Positions 21,514-42,197 of a DNA stretch of 43,749 bases are shown here, piece by piece. A program made the position numbers and the translations under genes. The notes under the pieces were generated by a model. The model saw only the letters and a program-made list of their open reading frames with translations, was not told where the DNA came from and did no database searches. Origin of the DNA: a virus. Its lineage: Duplodnaviria > Heunggongvirae > Uroviricota > Caudoviricetes. Each line of letters begins with the position of its first letter. Position 1 is the first letter of the stretch. The stretch lies in the IMG/VR virus record IMGVR_UViG_2675903595_000011; one strand, written 5' to 3'.

Positions 21514-22971
21514 TTAGGAGCGCCAAAAAAAACCTGAAAACAATATAATAACAGGATAAATTTCAAGGCGACCAAGAATCATAGCTATGCACATTAAATA
21601 TTTTGCAATGTCATTAAGCACTCCGAATGACGATGCAGTAGCCCCAAAACCTAATCCCATATTATTAATACATGCAGCCACTGTTGCAAATGATGTAAGA
21701 AAATCATATCCCATACCATTTAACACCAGTATAAAAAACACCGTGAAGAGAGTATAAAGAAAAAAGAAACTCCATACAGACCTCATTACACGATCTGTAA
21801 CTATCTTCCCTCCTACATTTACACTCAACAACGCTCTGGGATGAGAAAGCTGATTTATCTCGTGTTTGCTTTGTTTGAAAAGTATAAGAAATCGAAGTGA
21901 CTTAATTCCACCACAGGTTGAACCTATACATCCCCCAAAGAAACTTGACAACAGCAAAAACACTATCGTGTGCGTGGGCCAGTTTGCATAATCCTGCGTA
22001 GCTAAACCATTATCAGTGAGCATGGAGCTGGCAAGAAAAAACGAATGAATAAAACTTCCATGCAAGTCATACATACCTATATGCCAGACCTGGAAAGAGG
22101 TAACAATGATCACCCCTAAGGCTATTAACAGAAAGAAACGAAGTTCAATATCTCTGATTAAAGGTTTTATCGTTTTTCTGCTAATAACAATATACCAAAG
22201 AGTGAAGTTGAAAGCCGATAGCAGGGAAAAAGAACCAGCCACCAGCTCAACCAAATAGTTATTAAAATATCCGATACTCTCGCTATGAGTTGAGAAACCA
22301 CCAAGCGAAACTGTGGAAATCCCGTGACAAATAGCATCAAACAAAGGCATTCCTGCAAGTCTATAACAGACAATACAAGCAATACCTAATAAAGAATAAG
22401 TTATCCACAGTGTCCGTGACGTATCGGCCAGGCGGGGAGTGAGTTTGTCATCCTTAAATGGCCCCGGCATTTCTGACTGATAAAGCTTTGCACCACCAAT
22501 ACCCAATAATGGCAATACTGCAACCGCCAGAACAATAACTCCTAAACCACCTATAAAATTTAACTGTGACCGATAGTACAAATATGCCCGAGGTAATGAA
22601 CTAACATCATCAATTACAGTTGCTCCTGTTGTTGTTATTCCAGAAACCCCTTCAAACAGAGCATCAATGAACGTTAAATTAAGTTCTGAGTCAATCCATA
22701 AAGGGAATGCACTAATAACAGAAAACAAAATCCAAAACATTACAATTATAATAAACCCATCACGGGTACGTAATTGAATGCCAGATTTCTTAGTTGTATA
22801 CCACGCTCCGCCACCAATGCAAAAAAATATAACGAAAGTTATAAAGAAAACGAACAGGCTTTTTTCTTTATAAAACAATGCTACAACCATTGGTGGCAAC
22901 ATTGAAAGACTATAGAGCCAAACCAGGAACCCACACATATGAGTAACAACTCTTACATGAGATGTATTCAT
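21514..22971 (-). CDS. trkG: Trk potassium uptake membrane protein TrkG
   Basis: Polytopic membrane protein; N-terminus MNTSHVRVVTHMCGF... matches K-12 TrkG (a Rac prophage gene) as recalled. Confidence 0.9.
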   Translation of the reverse strand: MNTSHVRVVTHMCGFLVWLYSLSMLPPMVVALFYKEKSLFVFFITFVIFFCIGGGAWYTTKKSGIQLRTRDGFIIIVMFWILFSVISAFPLWIDSELNLTFIDALFEGVSGITTTGATVIDDVSSLPRAYLYYRSQLNFIGGLGVIVLAVAVLPLLGIGGAKLYQSEMPGPFKDDKLTPRLADTSRTLWITYSLLGIACIVCYRLAGMPLFDAICHGISTVSLGGFSTHSESIGYFNNYLVELVAGSFSLLSAFNFTLWYIVISRKTIKPLIRDIELRFFLLIALGVIIVTSFQVWHIGMYDLHGSFIHSFFLASSMLTDNGLATQDYANWPTHTIVFLLLSSFFGGCIGSTCGGIKSLRFLILFKQSKHEINQLSHPRALLSVNVGGKIVTDRVMRSVWSFFFLYTLFTVFFILVLNGMGYDFLTSFATVAACINNMGLGFGATASSFGVLNDIAKYLMCIAMILGRLEIYPVIILFSGFFWRS

Positions 22972-23108
22972 ATCTAAATATTCTTTCAATTATAACCACC
23001 TTGCTGCAATATTATGATTATACTGTATAAAATTTAACTCCTCTTAGATCTTACTTCACTGTTCCTTATGAAACAATCATCAAAATGAATCATATTGTAG
23101 TTAAGATT

Positions 23109-24593: not shown

Positions 24594-24989
24594 CTAACCT
24601 CGCATGTCAAAGCCAGATTTCTGAAAATCTCTGTAGACTTCCGGATTGTTGAAGGCCGGAAATTTGGCTTTATGAGCTGCGGACTTTATCGCTTCGCAAT
24701 AGGCTTTATCACCGTTACTGGTAGATATTTTTAACGCCGTGCCATCCTGAGAGAATTCCATATGCAACCTGCATTTTTTCCCTTTCCAGTTATGCGGCTC
24801 ATCAAGTTTGGCATTAATTGCAGCTCTGATTCCCCGCGCTTGCGCCCCCCATTCATCCTGATCATCCCAGCGTCCTGAACTGCAACTACCTGTAGCAGTA
24901 GTTTTGTGGCAATCTGAAGGGTGTAAAGGTGTGCATCCCGCAACAAAACCGACCCAAAAAGTCAACATAACGATTTTCTTTAATCCCAC
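24594..24989 (-). CDS. lipoprotein with TolA C-terminal-domain-like region
   Basis: Signal peptide with VAGC lipobox; C-terminal ...CRLHMEFSQDG...NPEVYRDFQKSGFDMRG paralogous to the adjacent gene. Confidence 0.6.
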   Translation of the reverse strand: MGLKKIVMLTFWVGFVAGCTPLHPSDCHKTTATGSCSSGRWDDQDEWGAQARGIRAAINAKLDEPHNWKGKKCRLHMEFSQDGTALKISTSNGDKAYCEAIKSAAHKAKFPAFNNPEVYRDFQKSGFDMRG

Positions 24990-25139
24990 TTCTTGCTCCT
25001 CAATCCATTAAAATCTCAGCAATAGTAGTTGTTACGTCCGCCACTGGCTCAGAGCTGACTATCCGCTAAATTTAGCTCAGTGCCGTAGCTGTGTCAGAAC
25101 AAACCTAAGCCGAAACCGTTTATTACAAAACAATAAATA

Positions 25140-25568
25140 TCAGGGTTTAAAATCCAGCACCCCATTTTGAAATACTTTATATACTTCCGGCGAAGGGGGG
25201 GCAGGTATATCAGCATTCTTTATCGCATTCATCGCTTCACGACATAAATCGAGGTCTCCACTTTCTCTTTTAACCTCCAGTAGAAGGCCATTCGGGGCCA
25301 TATGCATTCTCAGTGTACACTCTTTTCCTGAATACTTACTCGCATCCCCGAACTGTTTTTCGATGGCGCTCTTGATTTGATGGGCATACAGACGGATATC
25401 CTCACTAACATCAGAAGTACGTTCAGATGAACTCACATACTGTGTCTCTATTGCTTTATCGGAGTAATATGATGTACGGTCATGATAATTTGTCGATACA
25501 GCATCAGTGCACCCGATAATAATCCCACTAATAATCAACGTAAGAATTGATGCGCTACGAAAACCCAT
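25140..25568 (-). CDS. lipoprotein with TolA domain-III-like C-terminus
   Basis: IIGC lipobox; C-terminal 80 aa read like the TolA C-terminus as recalled (...CTLR...PEVYKVFQNGVLDFKP). Confidence 0.7.
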   Translation of the reverse strand: MGFRSASILTLIISGIIIGCTDAVSTNYHDRTSYYSDKAIETQYVSSSERTSDVSEDIRLYAHQIKSAIEKQFGDASKYSGKECTLRMHMAPNGLLLEVKRESGDLDLCREAMNAIKNADIPAPPSPEVYKVFQNGVLDFKP

Positions 25569-26505
25569 TTTTCCTCACATATGTCATATAGTAAAGGATT
25601 ATATATACCGTTGTTTTGGACGCTCAAACAGCGAATCAGATCAAATAAAACGCACATTTGTTAACATTTACACAAAGTCTGCGTGGGATATTCTGAAAGA
25701 ATATCCATAATGTGGAGAGAATCTATTGAAGTGCATGGTGCCGGGTGCCTCCCGGTGAACAAAATGTTCGTGATACCTGTCGGCGACAGAAAAGGTTAAT
25801 GGTATCACCCCACCGCACAGGGGGATTCACCATGCAGGAGTTTTCTTAGCAAACTCACTGCGCGCCCGGCAACTCCCAACCACATAAAATGCGGAGTTTG
25901 TGGCATTTATGCATATAACTCGCAGGAATTATCTTAAAAAACTGATGTCGATCCGGATTAAAAAGAAGCAGGTCATCATCAGATGACTGGAAAAAAGGAA
26001 AACAAAAAATACTCATCATACAGTTTTGATTGCAGGGATGAGCCTGCTATGCACAATATGCAGAATATAAGCAAGATAAAAATATGCAGGCATATTATTT
26101 CGGATCTTGTTATTAACACAACCTTTTTAATAATCATTTGGCATACAATAAACCAGCCCAAAAAGAACCGCCTAAACAGGCGGTTGGTCAATACAAAGGA
26201 TGCTTCGTCTTTATTATAGTAATCTGAGGCGTCGGGTGTCTTGTATCAGACAACATATTGTCCCGCTAAACAGCGAATTACAAACCACCCTGCAATGATC
26301 TCTCATCTCATTTTATATGAGTTGACGACATCAGGATAACGCATCATCAGCCCCTGCCAAGAAATATCAAAACTCCCGCCAGCAATGTGTTATCACAATA
26401 TTGTAAAAAAAACACAGCACCGAAACTATAACTGGTCTCTGTTATAATTTGGAGCAGAAAGACCAGTTGCCCAACTAGCAGCATTCTCCCCTGCTTTCCT
26501 GACGT

Positions 26506-28041: not shown

Positions 28042-28321
28042 TTCTCAATCTCTCGATGGCGCAGCGCAGCAGATGCCAGTTGTTCAGGCTGACGAATAAA
28101 GTATAAATAAACTGGCTATGGTGTAAAGCCCCACATAGCATGAACAAACACTACATATCAAATAGCTGGTACAAGGATAGAAATACGACACTTATTATTA
28201 AAAACGATTAGATAAATTACATTTTAATGTTATGCAAAAGTTCTTTTTTATCATAACATTTCAATAAAAGCATTACAGATGCAATCATCCCGTCATCATC
28301 AATTATTTAAGGTGGTTAAAC

Positions 28322-28408
28322 ATGGAAAATAACAAGTTCGCACATCTCGCTCCTTTTTTATCCGTAATCCTTTTCGCTTGTTGTTTTATATGGGCATTAT
28401 TTTTATAA
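28322..28408 (+). CDS. candidate small hydrophobic protein (28 aa)
   Basis: AAGGTGG RBS 6 nt before ATG; translation MENNKFAHLAPFLSVILFACCFIWALFL. Confidence 0.3.
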   Translation: MENNKFAHLAPFLSVILFACCFIWALFL

Positions 28409-28816
28409 AGTAGCCACATGATAAGTTGCTGGAATCATATTTCCCACTCAAGTCATTAACATTTGATAAGATATATCTAAAAGGACGCCTTTACATTATT
28501 TATGCGTATATAATTTATTTATATACACAGTAAAGGTATCCTGGGAAAATATTTATCGTTAAAAAATACATCATAAATAATTAAGCTGAAATTTCAGAAC
28601 ACAACTAATACACACAATAAGGTTCAGTAACAGTAATCTATGTGGACTACATCGAGATTTTTTGATTAAACTTTAATAACTTATTCCTAACACACAGAAT
28701 GCATAAACTAAAAGTAAAACAAATAGTTATACGAAAAACAACCATATTTATTCTATCTTCTCCTCTAATCAACATATCAATTATGTGTTTCATAACAGCT
28801 TGACATAACCCTCCAA

Positions 28817-28839
28817 AAGATGCATTTTTAATGCATGTT
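28817..28839 (+). promoter_or_regulatory. NsrR-type palindromic operator candidate
   Basis: AAGATGCATTTTTAATGCATGTT: ATGCAT hexamers in inverted orientation, 5 nt apart, 15 nt upstream of the yeaR-like start. Confidence 0.5.
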
Positions 28840-28854
28840 TTGGAGGAGGTGGTT

Positions 28855-29193
28855 ATGACACACAAGAGAATTCCTAAAGATTGGGTAATCAAACGCTCAA
28901 CTCCGTTCTTCACAAAAGAGAACGTACCTTCAGCGTTATTAACACATCATAATACAGCAGCAGGTGTTTTTGGGCAGTTGTGCGTAATGGAAGGCACTGT
29001 AACATATTATGGTTTTACTGATGAGAATGCTACTGAACCGGAGATAAAAGTAGTCATTAATGCTGGCGCTTTTGCAACAAGCCCACCACAATACTGGCAC
29101 CGTGTTGAACTAAGCGATGATGCTCAGTTTAATATTAACTTTTGGGTCGCTCCAGACTTTTCGGGCGAAAAAGTCTATAGCACCAAAAAATAG
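28855..29193 (+). CDS. YeaR-like DUF1971 protein
   Basis: GGAGGAGG RBS; MTHKRIPKDWVIKRSTPFF... resembles E. coli YeaR as recalled. Confidence 0.8.
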   Translation: MTHKRIPKDWVIKRSTPFFTKENVPSALLTHHNTAAGVFGQLCVMEGTVTYYGFTDENATEPEIKVVINAGAFATSPPQYWHRVELSDDAQFNINFWVAPDFSGEKVYSTKK

Positions 29194-29813: not shown

Positions 29814-30815
29814 TTAGTAATCTGCGTGTTTCGCACTTTTCAGAAATGCTTTCATATTTTCATTAGGTCGCTCAATTTCGAAGTTACTTCCATATAACTC
29901 TTGTAATTTTGGCCATAACTTACTTAATAACCCTCTCCTGCGATAAAATGGATGTATCCAAACGGTAGATAGGTACGGAGAATTTGCATTTGAATTGTTT
30001 ATTGTGACCAGCCCAACTAAACATTGTCGATAACCACTATTATCCATTGATTGTATTTCTTCGACGAATGGATACGCGATTACATCAGTCCAACCATGAT
30101 CGGTTGTATCCCATTGCATTCCGTCATGACATTCCTTCGACTGATAGCGGCGTAAAGCTACACACGCGAGCTTTTGCCAATCTGGAGAATTAATTGTGAT
30201 CTCTTCATCGTATGACGCGCCTATTGGAGCGGGTATTGGTCTGATTAATCCAGCATGGCATTCATCATAGAACTTCATGTTTCCCTCAGAAACGTTGTGT
30301 ACGTTGGGTTGCTCCATGTGTGCGCCATTCAAAAATAGCTCTGATAGTAGTGTATCTACACTGTAATCTTTATTGATTATTGTCGGCTTAGAGTTTTTCT
30401 TATTAAGGCCGCGAGTAACGATTTTTTGATCAATGTTAACAACATGGAATAATCCGTCGGGGAGGCTAGCGAACCACGATGGGGCATCGGACCAGAATAG
30501 CATGCCTTTTGTACTTCTTAAGAGTTTAATTAAGTTAATACAAGCTTCTTCACTAGTCTTGCCGTTGATGCGAAGTATGTTAGGACTAAAGTAATATTCA
30601 TCCATATCAGGGAATGCAGCTTCGCAAAACTCCTGTACATAATTTAGCACCTGGATTCTACAGAGATCATCATAGCTGGTAATAACTAAGGGGGTATCTT
30701 CATTACTATTATGATTATCAATAATGCAATCTATAGCGAGACTTACTGCTTTGCGTATCACTTCAGTTGAATCTAACGACTCTAAAAATTTTGTCTTTCG
30801 TGTGCGAATATCCAT
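29814..30815 (-). CDS. hypothetical protein, second gene of AT-rich two-gene cassette; GNAT-like motif at C-terminus
   Basis: 333 aa; ATG 15 nt after upstream stop; C-terminal ...YLSTVWIHPFYRRRGLLSKLWPKLQELYG. Confidence 0.65.
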   Translation of the reverse strand: MDIRTRKTKFLESLDSTEVIRKAVSLAIDCIIDNHNSNEDTPLVITSYDDLCRIQVLNYVQEFCEAAFPDMDEYYFSPNILRINGKTSEEACINLIKLLRSTKGMLFWSDAPSWFASLPDGLFHVVNIDQKIVTRGLNKKNSKPTIINKDYSVDTLLSELFLNGAHMEQPNVHNVSEGNMKFYDECHAGLIRPIPAPIGASYDEEITINSPDWQKLACVALRRYQSKECHDGMQWDTTDHGWTDVIAYPFVEEIQSMDNSGYRQCLVGLVTINNSNANSPYLSTVWIHPFYRRRGLLSKLWPKLQELYGSNFEIERPNENMKAFLKSAKHADY

Positions 30816-30830
30816 GTATGACCTGCGCTA

Positions 30831-31853
30831 TTAAAATTCATGAATGAACGGTTTGTCATCTGGTTGCAAAATGGTGGTTTTATTCGTTGCTACATTTAAA
30901 CTGTTGTAGAGCATAATTGCCAGGTTCGATGCATTTTCAATCAGCGTTTCAAGATCCTGGTCTGTAATCACTACGAGGTTCCCTTCTTTATCCTTTCCAC
31001 CACGATGCACTAAGTGATTTCGATTGAGGGTTGCCAATTCAATAGCTTCTATCGGACAGTCTTTTTGTACTTTTATATCGAATGTAGCTTCATAGCGGTC
31101 GATTACCTTTTTAGTGCTATGCCAGCTTGCACTGATCAAGTGTTCCTTGATTGACCTGATTAGCTCTCCCCTAATTTTCTCGATGGGTTCACCCTTGAAA
31201 GGCAACGCAGCAATATCTTTGCTTACTTTAAATTCAGTCTTACCTTTTTCTATACAATTGGCTATGTAGACATCATCTTTCTCTATAGAATTAATGAATA
31301 GCTCAACATAAAGCGTTTCCAAAGCTGTAATAACATTCGTGTAGAGCAAACTAAGCAAGTGGTTTTTTTGCTGTTGTTCAGTTTTATCTTTTGCAAGTTT
31401 TTTTATTTTATCGATATTATCAATGAATTTTAAATACGGATTACCGGAAGACGTTACAGCGTCGTAGATATCATCATCGTACCAATCATCTATATTATTT
31501 GAGTTTCCAGACCAGTCAAAACATTGTGTTTGTAATTCATCTACTAATTCCTCAATATACTCAGATTTAACATATTGACCGAAGATGGATTGTAGTTCTT
31601 CGCTCGCATCATACGGCCCGCCATATATGTAAGCATAGCCACCTTCTCTACTTTCATACGGACAAGCATTTGCCGGATCTTCAAAGTTTTCAAAGAACCA
31701 GTTTTTCATTACTTCGAGTTGATCTTTTTTGCTTATGTATTTTAAAGATTTTAGTGGAACTTTCTTTCCATTAACCTCGAAAACAATTTTCACGATGTAA
31801 CGCTCCCTTGTATCAATTGCGCAACTATTATACCACAGCGAAATACAGGGCAT
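30831..31853 (-). CDS. hypothetical protein, first gene of AT-rich two-gene cassette; C-terminal HEPN-like Rx4H motif
   Basis: AAGGAGG RBS 6 nt upstream of ATG at 31853 (MPCISLWY...); RNHLVH at codons 278-283 (about 31005..31022). Confidence 0.65.
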   Translation of the reverse strand: MPCISLWYNSCAIDTRERYIVKIVFEVNGKKVPLKSLKYISKKDQLEVMKNWFFENFEDPANACPYESREGGYAYIYGGPYDASEELQSIFGQYVKSEYIEELVDELQTQCFDWSGNSNNIDDWYDDDIYDAVTSSGNPYLKFIDNIDKIKKLAKDKTEQQQKNHLLSLLYTNVITALETLYVELFINSIEKDDVYIANCIEKGKTEFKVSKDIAALPFKGEPIEKIRGELIRSIKEHLISASWHSTKKVIDRYEATFDIKVQKDCPIEAIELATLNRNHLVHRGGKDKEGNLVVITDQDLETLIENASNLAIMLYNSLNVATNKTTILQPDDKPFIHEF

Positions 31854-31991
31854 AACCTGCCTCCTTAAACTAACATACCATGAGCCAGCAATGTCCGCTA
31901 TTGGCACAAAGCGGACAACCACGCTAGCTCTCCCCTGTGCCAGAAAAATGTCAATTTACATATGAACTAATGCTCTTTGATCTAGTAACGT

Positions 31992-32408
31992 CTATAAATA
32001 CCGAAGATTTCCTTGATAAAATGCCAGTACACGTTTCATAACTTCACTCTTCCGGCACTCGCGACAGATTATGTTCTGACGCCTGTCATAGCGGCGTATT
32101 TCTCCGTCTGGTAATGACCAGATAAGGTCAGGATCAACCACAACCGTTTTTTTCACCTTTGCCCTGGATAGTTTTTTGCGGGCGTTTTTCCAATCCTTAC
32201 GAGCCTGTTCAGACGGGAATAACCCATAGCCAGAGTTGTATACATCGCCACTGGCAACCAACTCTCTGGCAAGAATGCTCATCAGATATCTTGTCGCACC
32301 TGTCTTGGCCTCCAGTTGCCTTAACGTCTCGCGCCCACTCTGGCGTACCAACTCAACAACCTGCTCCTTAATTTTTTCACGCTCTTCCTGTGTAAAAACT
32401 TTTGCCAT
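31992..32408 (-). CDS. hypothetical phage protein
   Basis: GGAGG RBS, MAKVFTQEEREK...; C-terminal CxxC. Confidence 0.55.
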   Translation of the reverse strand: MAKVFTQEEREKIKEQVVELVRQSGRETLRQLEAKTGATRYLMSILARELVASGDVYNSGYGLFPSEQARKDWKNARKKLSRAKVKKTVVVDPDLIWSLPDGEIRRYDRRQNIICRECRKSEVMKRVLAFYQGNLRYL

Positions 32409-32423
32409 AAGCGCCTCCGGCAA

Positions 32424-42008: not shown

Positions 42009-42197
42009 ATGTATAAAATTACCGCCACTATTGAAAAGGAAGGTGGCACTCCTACTAACTGGACAAGATATTCAAAATCTAAACTAACGAAATCAGAATG
42101 CGAAAAAATGCTCTCAGGTAAAAAAGAAGCAGGCGTTTCCAGAGAGCAGAAAGTAAAACTGATAAATTTTAATTGCGAGAAACTTCAGTCCTCGTGA
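42009..42197 (+). CDS. ydaC: YdaC-like protein
   Basis: GGAGGTG RBS, MYKITATIEKEGGTPTNW... Confidence 0.6.
   Translation: MYKITATIEKEGGTPTNWTRYSKSKLTKSECEKMLSGKKEAGVSREQKVKLINFNCEKLQSS

What the first reader, a model, noticed from the sequence alone, without database searches (positions are those of the whole stretch)
29814..31922. AT-rich two-gene operon (HEPN-like + GNAT-like proteins) between replication and Q modules: candidate undescribed defence/abortive-infection system
Two tightly coupled minus-strand genes (15-nt spacer) sit in a visibly AT-rich block between the replication and nin/Q modules, a position where lambdoid prophages commonly carry accessory cargo. Gene A (30831..31853; AAGGAGG RBS) ends with RNHLVH, which fits the Rx4-6H motif of HEPN RNase domains. 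Gene B (29814..30815) ends with VWIHPFYRRRGLLSKL, resembling the beta4-alpha3 acetyl-CoA-binding region of GNAT acetyltransferases. Both folds are typical toxin/effector domains, but I do not recognise this pairing or either N-terminal region as a named system.
Basis: partly seen in the sequence, partly recalled or inferred. Interest (0 to 1): 0.85.

Follow-up and report, generated by a model that had tools for sequence, protein, structure and literature searches.

The report
Known HEPN phage-defence gene plus GNAT passenger
The two genes are real and sit in a Rac-like E. coli prophage, but the pair has already been published and tested as anti-phage system DS-33, where the HEPN nuclease gene alone gives the protection and the acetyltransferase-like gene is dispensable.

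Summary
Two minus-strand ORFs lie 15 nt apart in an AT-rich block of a Rac-like lambdoid prophage.

- **Gene A** is a HEPN/RES-NTD1 domain followed by a RiboL-PSP-type HEPN domain, with an invariant R-x4-H motif.

The pair is not undescribed. Gene A in its 320-aa form is 100% identical to DS-33A, and gene B is 332/333 identical to DS-33B. DS-33 comes from DefensePredictor (DeWeirdt et al., bioRxiv 2025 / Science 2026). Their Table S7 gives these results:

- The pair cuts plating of T7, T3, Bas67 and Bas26 by 2-6 logs.
- Deleting the HEPN gene, or mutating R258A, abolishes defence.
- Deleting the GNAT gene leaves defence intact.

My comparative genomics agrees. A and B are adjacent only in one closely related cassette (A ≥87%, B ≥80% identity). 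Elsewhere each occurs alone in cargo slots of mobile elements.

Gene A most likely starts at GTG 31793, not ATG 31853.

What remains open is A's trigger and RNA target, and the function of B. The published B allele carries L at the otherwise invariant P289, so wild-type B has not been tested.

Verdict: already known, modest residual interest.

The parts
30831..31793 (-). Gene A = DS-33A (WP_014639476.1), 320 aa, HEPN/RES-NTD1 + RiboL-PSP-type HEPN. This is the defence effector.
   Evidence: ORF. It is 100% identical to the published DS-33A sequence. Homolog alignment. Pfam on homologs. RefSeq annotation.
31494..31793 (-). HEPN/RES N-terminal domain 1 (residues ~1-100), the most conserved part of A. 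I infer it is the sensor or regulatory module.
   Evidence: Pfam PF18870 scores E 2.5e-4 on the window protein, below the family threshold. Homologs score E about 1e-5 to 7e-6, just below threshold, and P0116 is just above it. Invariant residues P45, G58, G59, P60, F71, W94. The domain was defined in PMC3710099. It is also found fused to PIN and to tails ending in a hydrophobic helix.
30879..31451 (-). HEPN domain of A (residues ~115-305), all-helical.
   Evidence: The AF2 model has mean pLDDT 85, with helices spanning residues 119-308. Homologs P0101 and P0060 match PF18735 HEPN_RiboL-PSP above the family threshold. E159 is invariant.
31005..31022 (-). R-x4-H catalytic motif RNHLVH (R258...H263).
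   Evidence: Read directly from the sequence. R258, H263 and R264 are invariant in 107 sequences. R258A abolishes defence in the published Table S7.
31803..31835 (-). Probable native promoter -10 and ribosome-binding site of A: extended -10 TGgTATAAT (31835..31827) and Shine-Dalgarno AGGGAG (31808..31803), ahead of GTG 31793.
   Evidence: The element is conserved as TACAAT + SD + GTG in Serratia grimesii (L011) and Aeromonas caviae (L120/L121), although their upstream flanks differ. This is an inference from conservation; no transcript data exist. The consensus scan did not list it, because the -35 is weak.
30816..30830 (-). 15-nt A-B spacer (TAGCGCAGGTCATAC).
   Evidence: Length and most bases are kept in the Serratia, IMG/VR and Aeromonas copies of the cassette.
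29814..30815 (-). Gene B (WP_000354966.1), 333 aa. It equals DS-33B except for P289 versus L289. Residues ~1-200 form a family-specific alpha/beta N-terminal domain, and residues ~205-333 form a GNAT fold. It is dispensable for the published defence; its function is unknown.
29916..29963 (-). GNAT beta4-alpha3 region VWIHPFYRRRGLLSKL (residues 285-300). The P289 codon is 29949..29951.
   Evidence: P289 is present in 58/58 homologs and in 48/48 near-identical copies in fetched loci. All 209 complete E. coli genomes holding this 63-mer match it exactly.

Best explanation
The locus is the published anti-phage system DS-33, carried as accessory cargo of a Rac-like prophage.

**Gene A** is the whole defence function measured so far. 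It is a single-chain protein: a conserved HEPN/RES-NTD1 module followed by a RiboL-PSP-type HEPN ribonuclease domain whose R258-x4-H263 site is required.

Inferred mechanism for A:
- It is made constitutively from its own promoter and held inactive.
- On infection by T7-like and some other phages, the N-terminal module senses a phage product or a phage-induced change.
- That releases the HEPN RNase, which cuts host and/or phage RNA (tRNA or mRNA) and stops phage production, probably at the cost of the infected cell.

**Gene B** is a separate cargo gene that became linked to A in one lineage. It has a family-specific N-terminal domain plus a GNAT acyl-CoA transferase fold. It is not needed for A's defence. 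Its own role is unknown; the two candidates are an independent conflict effector or a mild modulator of A.

**Shown:** identity to DS-33, the defence phenotype, the need for A and R258, and the dispensability of B.
**Inferred:** sensing by the NTD, an RNA target, abortive outcome, and any role for B.
For: **Identity**
- A is 320/320 identical to DS-33A and B is 332/333 identical to DS-33B. The sequences and accessions come from the supplement of PMC13092281.

**Published plating data, two replicates, log10 reduction**

| Construct | T7 | T3 | Bas67 | Bas26 |
|---|---|---|---|---|
| Wild type | 3.8 / 2.6 | 3.3 / 2.4 | 4.0 / 2.0 | 5.0 / 5.9 |
| dGNAT | 4.8 / 4.3 | 3.3 / 3.3 | 4.0 / 3.3 | 5.0 / 4.9 |

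- dHEPN gives about 0 for every phage, and R258A gives 0-0.8.
- The unit was cloned with its native promoter on a low-copy plasmid.

**HEPN assignment**
- R258, H263, R264 and E159 are invariant.
- Homologs exceed the PF18735 threshold.
- The paper's own HHpred table gives 96.1% probability to PD-T4-2_B, a RiboL-PSP-HEPN protein.

**A and B are independent**
- Of 12 species-representative genomes with B, only 2 have A beside it, and those are near-identical copies.
- In viral contigs, the pair occurs only where A is ≥96% identical. All 11 A homologs at 56-74% identity, and all more distant ones, lack B within the 0.5-4 kb of downstream sequence held (4 kb for most). B at 86% identity lacks A.
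- Solo A sits in known cargo slots: between P2 gpA and the portal gene, beside integrases, and beside DUF2326. It also sits at a prophage end in Aeromonas.

**The N-terminal domain is modular**
- The same domain is joined to PIN, to RES and other domains (PMC3710099), and to tails ending in a hydrophobic helix.
Against: - No experiment shows what A cleaves, what triggers it, or whether defence is abortive. DS-33 is not discussed in the paper's main text.
- Foldseek of the A model against the PDB found no significant match, and a profile search of PDB sequences found none. The HEPN fold therefore rests on sequence profiles, the motif and the R258A result.
- The A-B cassette keeps its 15-nt spacer across three kinds of mobile element: a lambdoid prophage, a Serratia island beside McrBC, and an Aeromonas mobilisable island. 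This could mean the link has a function.
- dGNAT defence averages about 0.5 log higher than wild type over 10 comparisons, so some interaction cannot be excluded.
- The B allele tested carried L289 at an invariant position.
Confidence: 0.88

Rival explanations
1. Obligate two-component system: the HEPN and GNAT proteins work together as sensor/effector or toxin/antitoxin, and both are needed for defence.
For: - The 15-nt coupling and co-orientation are confirmed.
- The cassette is conserved as a unit at A 87% / B 80% identity in Aeromonas, and at 98% / 95% in Serratia.
Against: - dGNAT retains full defence in two replicates and is viable. B alone (dHEPN) gives none.
- A is solo at ≤76% identity and B is solo at ≤86% identity in many genomes.
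- No PADLOC, toxin-antitoxin or MNT-type partner domains were found.
Confidence: 0.05
2. B is a negative modulator or self-immunity factor for A. For example, it could acetylate A, its RNA target or a trigger. That would damp A's activity so the carrying prophage, or the cell, tolerates it.
For: - dGNAT defence is equal to or higher than wild type in 9 of 10 phage-by-replicate comparisons, with a mean difference of about +0.5 log.
- The tight operon link is kept across three element types.
Against: - The differences are within one or two ten-fold dilution steps and could reflect altered expression of A.
- dGNAT cells are viable, so B is not an antitoxin.
- Most A homologs live without B, and most B homologs without A.
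- The tested B allele may be impaired (L289), which makes the comparison hard to read.
Confidence: 0.15
3. B is an independent single-gene conflict or defence protein. Its N-terminal domain would sense, and its GNAT domain would acetylate a translation component or a phage molecule. It merely sits next to A in a small defence cluster.
For: **Solo B lies in mobile-element cargo and defence neighbourhoods**
- After a P4-like primase, beside RadC/antirestriction, and beside conjugative TraD.
- Next to HigBA-like genes (by eye from the translated sequences; not checked by profile).
- In an island with TerB_N, BrxC/D-like ATPase, helicase, Mrr_cat and HEPN_Toprim_N.
- The A-B cassette itself lies beside SIR2 in Aeromonas.

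**The family looks functional**
- It is highly conserved (55% mean column identity) with many invariant residues.
- The GNAT fold is confident.
Against: - B alone gave no defence against five phages, though with the L289 allele.
- Its DefensePredictor score was low: 1.08 against 9.45 for A.
- The second glycine or alanine of the acetyl-CoA motif is missing (RRRGLL).
- The family is small: 21 hits among 1.84 billion representatives, all with the same architecture.
Confidence: 0.3

Closest known systems
DS-33 (DS-33A/DS-33B; working name 'GNAT') of DefensePredictor, DeWeirdt et al., Science 2026 / bioRxiv 10.1101/2025.01.08.631726 (PMC13092281)
   Same: It is the same locus. A is 320/320 identical and B is 332/333 identical, with the same order and spacing. 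It was cloned from an ECOR strain contig (NZ_QOWT01000046.1:6922-8901) and shown to defend against T7, T3, Bas67 and Bas26.
   Different: The window's B has the consensus P289, where the tested allele has L289. The paper gives no mechanism and no genomic-context analysis for DS-33 in its main text.
HepS, solo HEPN abortive-infection protein of Salmonella prophage Gifsy-1 (PMC13043305)
   Same: - A prophage-encoded HEPN protein that works alone.
- It lies in the accessory slot next to the replication genes of a lambdoid prophage.
- Its RX4-6H site is required for defence.
- It is an anticodon nuclease activated by a phage structural protein.

HepS is a good working model for how gene A may act.
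   Different: - HepS is under 250 aa with its motif at R100-H105 and has no HEPN/RES-NTD1 domain.
- A profile of A found nothing significant in a 2026 copy of PDB sequences, which should include the HepS entries 9OIJ/9OIK named in the paper.
- HepS restricts siphoviruses through the J tail tip, whereas DS-33 acts on T7-like phages.
- No trigger or target is known for A.
PD-T4-2 component B (RiboL-PSP-HEPN protein; Vassallo et al. 2022, PMC9519451)
   Same: It is the nearest known defence protein by profile comparison. HHpred probability is 96.1% over 55% of A, as listed in the DefensePredictor table. Both belong to the RiboL-PSP branch of HEPN.
   Different: The relationship is remote. No PADLOC model, including those for PD-T4-2, matched A at E ≤ 1. 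A also has the HEPN/RES-NTD1 domain, and its phage range differs (PD-T4-2 was selected on T4).
HEPN/RES-NTD1-containing conflict proteins (Anantharaman et al. 2013, PMC3710099)
   Same: The architecture of HEPN/RES-NTD1 followed by a HEPN domain was catalogued computationally, with KPK_1764 of Klebsiella as the example. The domain is also fused to RES and other effector domains.
   Different: That survey places the fused HEPN in the MAE_28990 group. Homologs of A hit the RiboL-PSP model instead. No function was tested there.
GNAT toxins of type II toxin-antitoxin systems (AtaT, TacT, KacT; from my own knowledge)
   Same: They share the GNAT fold and are carried on mobile elements. Acetylating aminoacyl-tRNA would be a plausible way for a GNAT to stop translation.
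   Different: Those toxins are about 170-180 aa and have an adjacent small antitoxin. B is 333 aa with a unique N-terminal domain, has no antitoxin-like neighbour when solo, and its deletion or presence had no reported toxicity phenotype.

Membership tests
DS-33 (DefensePredictor) | Sequence identity of both proteins to the published DS-33A and DS-33B, with the same gene order | tested here: met
   A is 320/320 identical. B is 332/333 identical, the only difference being P289L. The published sequences were read from supplement file 7. The name mapping GNAT = DS-33 is in files 2, 6 and 7.
DS-33 (DefensePredictor) | Anti-phage phenotype of this exact allele pair | not testable with these tools
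   Published plating data exist for the ECOR allele. The window's allele, with P289 in B, has not been assayed.
HEPN superfamily (gene A) | Conserved R-x4-6-H motif | tested here: met
   RNHLVH at residues 258-263. R258, H263 and R264 are invariant in 107 sequences.
HEPN superfamily (gene A) | Profile match to a curated HEPN family above its threshold | tested here: inconclusive
   The window protein itself gives no PF18735 hit at E ≤ 1. Homologs at 32-58% identity do pass: P0101 at 36.1 bits and P0060 at 28.5 bits, against a cut-off of 28.4. The published HHpred result is 96.1% to a RiboL-PSP-HEPN protein.
HEPN superfamily (gene A) | Alpha-helical HEPN fold seen by structure comparison | tested here: inconclusive
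   The model is all-helical over residues 119-308, with mean pLDDT 85. Foldseek against the PDB gave no hit with E ≤ 0.001.
HEPN superfamily (gene A) | Function depends on the motif arginine | not testable with these tools
   Published: R258A reduces defence to 0-0.8 log.
HEPN/RES-NTD1 (PF18870) (gene A N-terminus) | Profile match above Pfam's threshold | tested here: inconclusive
   The window protein scores 21.8 bits against a cut-off of 27.4. Full-length homologs score 25.4-26.8 bits, and P0116 scores 28.7 bits. The precomputed PF18870 label is attached to many homologs.
GNAT acyl-CoA N-acyltransferase superfamily (gene B C-terminus) | GNAT fold | tested here: met
GNAT acyl-CoA N-acyltransferase superfamily (gene B C-terminus) | Pfam Acetyltransf_1 match above threshold | tested here: inconclusive
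   The window protein scores 19.9 bits against a cut-off of 20.7. Homologs P0164 (27.0 bits) and P0166 (26.2 bits) pass.
GNAT acyl-CoA N-acyltransferase superfamily (gene B C-terminus) | Acetyl-CoA pyrophosphate-binding motif Q/R-x-x-G-x-G/A | tested here: inconclusive
   YRRRGLLS has R-x-x-G but L in place of the final G/A. The family consensus is RRxGKL.
Type II toxin-antitoxin pairs (HEPN-MNT, or GNAT toxin with RHH/HTH antitoxin) | A cognate antitoxin partner (an MNT nucleotidyltransferase, or a small DNA-binding antitoxin) and toxicity when the partner is removed | tested here: not met
   No MNT, RHH or HTH domain is found in either protein. Each gene occurs alone in many genomes. The dGNAT and dHEPN strains were both viable in the published work.
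HepS family | Stand-alone HEPN protein under 250 aa that is homologous to HepS | tested here: not met
   A is 320 aa with an extra N-terminal domain. A profile search of PDB sequences found no match with E < 0.05; the HepS entries 9OIJ/9OIK should be in that 2026 copy.

The most novel reading that the evidence does not exclude
Gene B in its natural form (P289) may be an active, so-far untested player. It could be an autonomous GNAT-based conflict effector, with a sensor-like N-terminal domain unique to this family. Or it could be a tuner of the HEPN nuclease that lets the prophage tolerate its own defence. The only published test used a rare allele mutated at an invariant residue next to the predicted acetyl-CoA loop, so 'dispensable and inactive' may understate it.
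Probability: 0.3. Interest if true: 0.55.

Novelty: already known. Interest (0 to 1): 0.22.

Why it matters
As a discovery it adds little, because the pair has been found, named and validated. It is still useful in three ways.

1. **Context for DS-33.** It places DS-33 in its natural setting, the accessory slot of Rac-like prophages, in about 4% of complete E. coli genomes including the type strain. It also shows that the active HEPN gene travels alone through classic defence hotspots such as the P2 gpA-portal slot.
2. **Independent agreement.** Comparative genomics predicts that the HEPN gene is self-sufficient, which matches the published deletion data.
3. **A gap in the published test.** The GNAT gene assayed carried a private substitution at an invariant proline, so its function is still open.

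The trigger and RNA target of a HEPN/RES-NTD1 protein have not been determined for any member. This well-behaved E. coli example would be a good place to determine them.

Tried and rejected
- **PADLOC models:** no credible hit for either protein.
- **NCBIfam:** nothing above noise.
- **PHROGs:** both proteins fall in families of unknown function.
- **Foldseek of the A model against the PDB:** no significant match, only generic helical bundles.
- **Profile searches of PDB sequences with both alignments:** no relatives with solved structures.
- **Consensus promoter/terminator scan:** counts were no higher than in shuffled sequence. It missed the conserved extended -10, and the two terminator-like sites about 340 nt beyond B are not evidence.
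- **Phage GenBank records:** only the neighbouring DUF977 gene matched, so the pair is absent from deposited phage genomes at ≥85% identity.
- **Literature:** no paper text mentions the accessions or discusses DS-33 beyond the DefensePredictor tables.
- **HEPN-MNT or GNAT toxin-antitoxin pair:** considered and rejected (see membership test).
considered and rejected.
Full report
**What is in the sequence**

- The window is a Rac-like lambdoid prophage of E. coli. It runs from tail and head genes, through lysis genes and trkG, to ydaS/T/U/V-type replication genes, then sieB, kilR, recET, ralR and intR next to ttcA.
- Two minus-strand ORFs lie between the DUF977 gene (31992..32423) and the late-regulation genes (DUF1367, DUF1364, DUF1133). 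They run 30831..31922 and 29814..30815, and are separated by 15 nt.
- GC content is 0.34-0.43 across them, against about 0.5 in the replication module.
- RefSeq calls both genes 'hypothetical protein' (WP_014639476.1 and WP_000354966.1).
- The 2.35-kb block is present at ≥80% coverage in 205 of 5,426 complete E. coli genomes, including the type strain ATCC 11775.

**Start of gene A**

That sequence is there, but four things favour GTG 31793 (320 aa):

1. All aligned homologs begin at MKIVF....
2. RefSeq annotates the 320-aa form.
3. The stretch between the two candidate starts holds an extended -10 (TGgTATAAT, 31835..31827) and a Shine-Dalgarno sequence. Both are conserved, together with the GTG, in the Serratia grimesii and Aeromonas caviae copies.
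4. In the Aeromonas copy, homology begins only at this promoter-like element, and the upstream ATG is missing.

The motif residues are therefore R258 and H263.

**What gene A is**

- The window protein gives only a sub-threshold Pfam hit to HEPN/RES N-terminal domain 1.
- A search of 5.8 billion proteins found 121 clusters of relatives. Members at 32-58% identity pass Pfam's threshold for HEPN_RiboL-PSP, and fall just under or over it for HEPN_RES_NTD1.
- In a 107-sequence alignment, R258, H263 and R264 are invariant, as is E159 in the first long helix. The N-terminal domain is even better conserved (P45, G58-G59-P60, F71, W94).
- The AlphaFold model (mean pLDDT 85) has a small alpha/beta N-terminal domain followed by a helical domain.
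- Foldseek against the PDB and a profile search of PDB sequences gave nothing significant. The HEPN call therefore rests on profiles, the motif and published mutagenesis.
- The NTD1-plus-HEPN architecture was catalogued in 2013 (PMC3710099).
- The same N-terminal domain is joined to PIN (P0116) and, in viral contigs, to tails that end in a hydrophobic helix. This fits a sensor or adaptor that can drive different effectors. That reading is an inference.

**What gene B is**

- Sixty-six clusters of relatives were found, nearly all 327-347 aa and strongly conserved.
- The AlphaFold model is confident (pLDDT 90, pTM 0.82).
- Two homologs pass Pfam's Acetyltransf_1 threshold.
- The acetyl-CoA loop reads RRRGLL, so it lacks the usual last glycine or alanine.
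- An exhaustive search with the N-terminal ~200 residues found only 21 hits among 1.84 billion representatives. Essentially all were fragments or proteins with the same architecture.

**The pair is already published**

- Supplement tables of DefensePredictor (PMC13092281; preprint January 2025) list WP_014639476.1 and WP_000354965.1 from an ECOR contig. The working name is 'GNAT' and the formal name is DS-33, marked as replicated.
- The printed sequences are 320/320 identical to gene A and 332/333 identical to gene B.
- Transcription units were cloned with native promoters on a low-copy plasmid in MG1655.

Table S7 gives two replicates of log10 plating reduction:

| Construct | T7 | T3 | Bas67 | Bas26 | T5 |
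|---|---|---|---|---|---|
| Wild type | 3.8 / 2.6 | 3.3 / 2.4 | 4.0 / 2.0 | 5.0 / 5.9 | 0.8 / 0.1 |
| GNAT gene deleted | 4.8 / 4.3 | 3.3 / 3.3 | 4.0 / 3.3 | 5.0 / 4.9 | 1.7 / 0.5 |
| HEPN gene deleted | about 0 | about 0 | about 0 | about 0 | about 0 |
| R258A | 0-0.8 | 0-0.8 | 0-0.8 | 0-0.8 | 0-0.8 |

DS-33 is not discussed in the main text, and I found no other paper on it.

**Comparative genomics gives the same answer independently**

- Twelve species-representative genomes carry B. Only two have A next to it, and both are near-identical copies: a likely E. coli contig in a MAG, and Serratia grimesii. The other ten, at 86% down to 39% identity, do not.
- In IMG/VR, every A at ≥96% identity has B. 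Every A at 56-74% identity (11 loci), and all more distant relatives, lack it within the 0.5-4 kb of downstream sequence held (4 kb for most). B at 86% identity lacks A.
- The cassette does occur at A 87% / B 80% identity in Aeromonas caviae. It keeps the same 15-nt spacer there, on a mobilisable island beside a SIR2 gene.
- In Serratia the cassette lies beside McrBC.
- A at 76% identity is solo in a chromosome.
- Solo A sits between P2 gpA and the portal gene, next to integrases, and next to a DUF2326 protein.
- Solo B sits after a P4-like primase, and beside RadC/antirestriction and TraD. It also occurs in an island with TerB_N, a BrxC/D-like ATPase, Mrr_cat and HEPN_Toprim_N.

Both are therefore independent cargo genes of mobile elements that were joined once, after which the cassette spread.

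**How it most likely works**

- *Shown:* A with an intact R258 is necessary and sufficient for the measured defence.
- *Inferred:* A is a latent RNase whose N-terminal module detects infection and releases HEPN activity against tRNA or mRNA, probably as abortive infection.
- This mirrors HepS of Gifsy-1, which occupies the equivalent prophage slot and is a tail-tip-activated anticodon nuclease. A is not a HepS homolog.
- *B remains unexplained.* It may be an independent effector, a mild damper of A, or a passenger. The damper idea rests on GNAT-deletion defence averaging about 0.5 log higher.

**A caveat in the published test**

- The B allele assayed has L289.
- P289 is present in 58/58 homologs and in 48/48 near-identical copies in fetched loci.
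- All 209 complete E. coli genomes carrying this segment have the P codon.
- The residue lies in HPFYRRRG, next to the predicted cofactor loop.
- The finding that B alone gives no defence, and any effect of B on A, therefore still need testing with the natural allele.

**Verdict**

The system is already known as DS-33, and it is functionally a one-gene HEPN defence with a linked GNAT gene. Residual interest lies in the unknown trigger and target of A and in the untested wild-type B.

Noticed in passing
window 29949-29951 (codon P289 of gene B): The DS-33B allele tested in the published work has L at this position. P is invariant in 58/58 homologs and is present in all 209 complete E. coli genomes that carry the segment. 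Wild-type B has therefore not been assayed.
   Followed up: yes
window 31827-31835 and 31803-31808: An extended -10 (TGgTATAAT) and a Shine-Dalgarno sequence are conserved with the GTG start in the Serratia and Aeromonas copies. They lie inside the 20-codon extension that the ATG 31853 start would add.
   Followed up: yes
L128 (E. coli MB56, NZ_CP073936.1) and L127 (E. coli O78 strain 3): In MB56, two ISSen4 copies flank gene A alone, one upstream and one in the A-B spacer. This separates A from B while leaving both ORFs open. In O78 strain 3, an IS2 sits about 265 nt upstream of A.
   Followed up: partly
L065-L074 (IMG/VR contigs): Proteins of about 260-440 aa carry the HEPN/RES-NTD1 motif block (WF..N[FY]EDP...GGPY) but no HEPN domain. 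After an acidic linker they end in a hydrophobic, possibly membrane-inserting helix (...AWLHALPWPF).
   Followed up: partly
window 28042-28830: This is the most AT-rich stretch of the region (GC 0.29-0.34). It has no annotated gene and no long ORF, and lies between the DUF1367 gene and a plus-strand DUF1971 gene (28831-29193) that is itself an oppositely oriented insert.
   Followed up: no
window 25679-25865 (-): Rfam match to the sRNA STnc100 (86.6 bits against a gathering score of 47), in the gap between the tolA-like genes and the DUF1133 gene.
   Followed up: no
window 42015-42193 (-): Rfam match to RalA (225 bits), the antitoxin sRNA of the RalR type I toxin-antitoxin pair of Rac. It lies just downstream of the annotated ralR gene.
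   Followed up: no
L014:4256-5212 (Colwellia MAG): A 318-aa ORF lies about 800 nt upstream of a solo B homolog (with a 104-aa ORF between them) and contains an R-x4-H-like string (LRNVVQHH). It has no Pfam match and could be another unclassified HEPN-like protein.
   Followed up: partly
window 21514-22989 and 24594-25568: This more complete Rac relative carries trkG (a potassium transporter) and two TolA-like ORFs as further prophage cargo.
   Followed up: no
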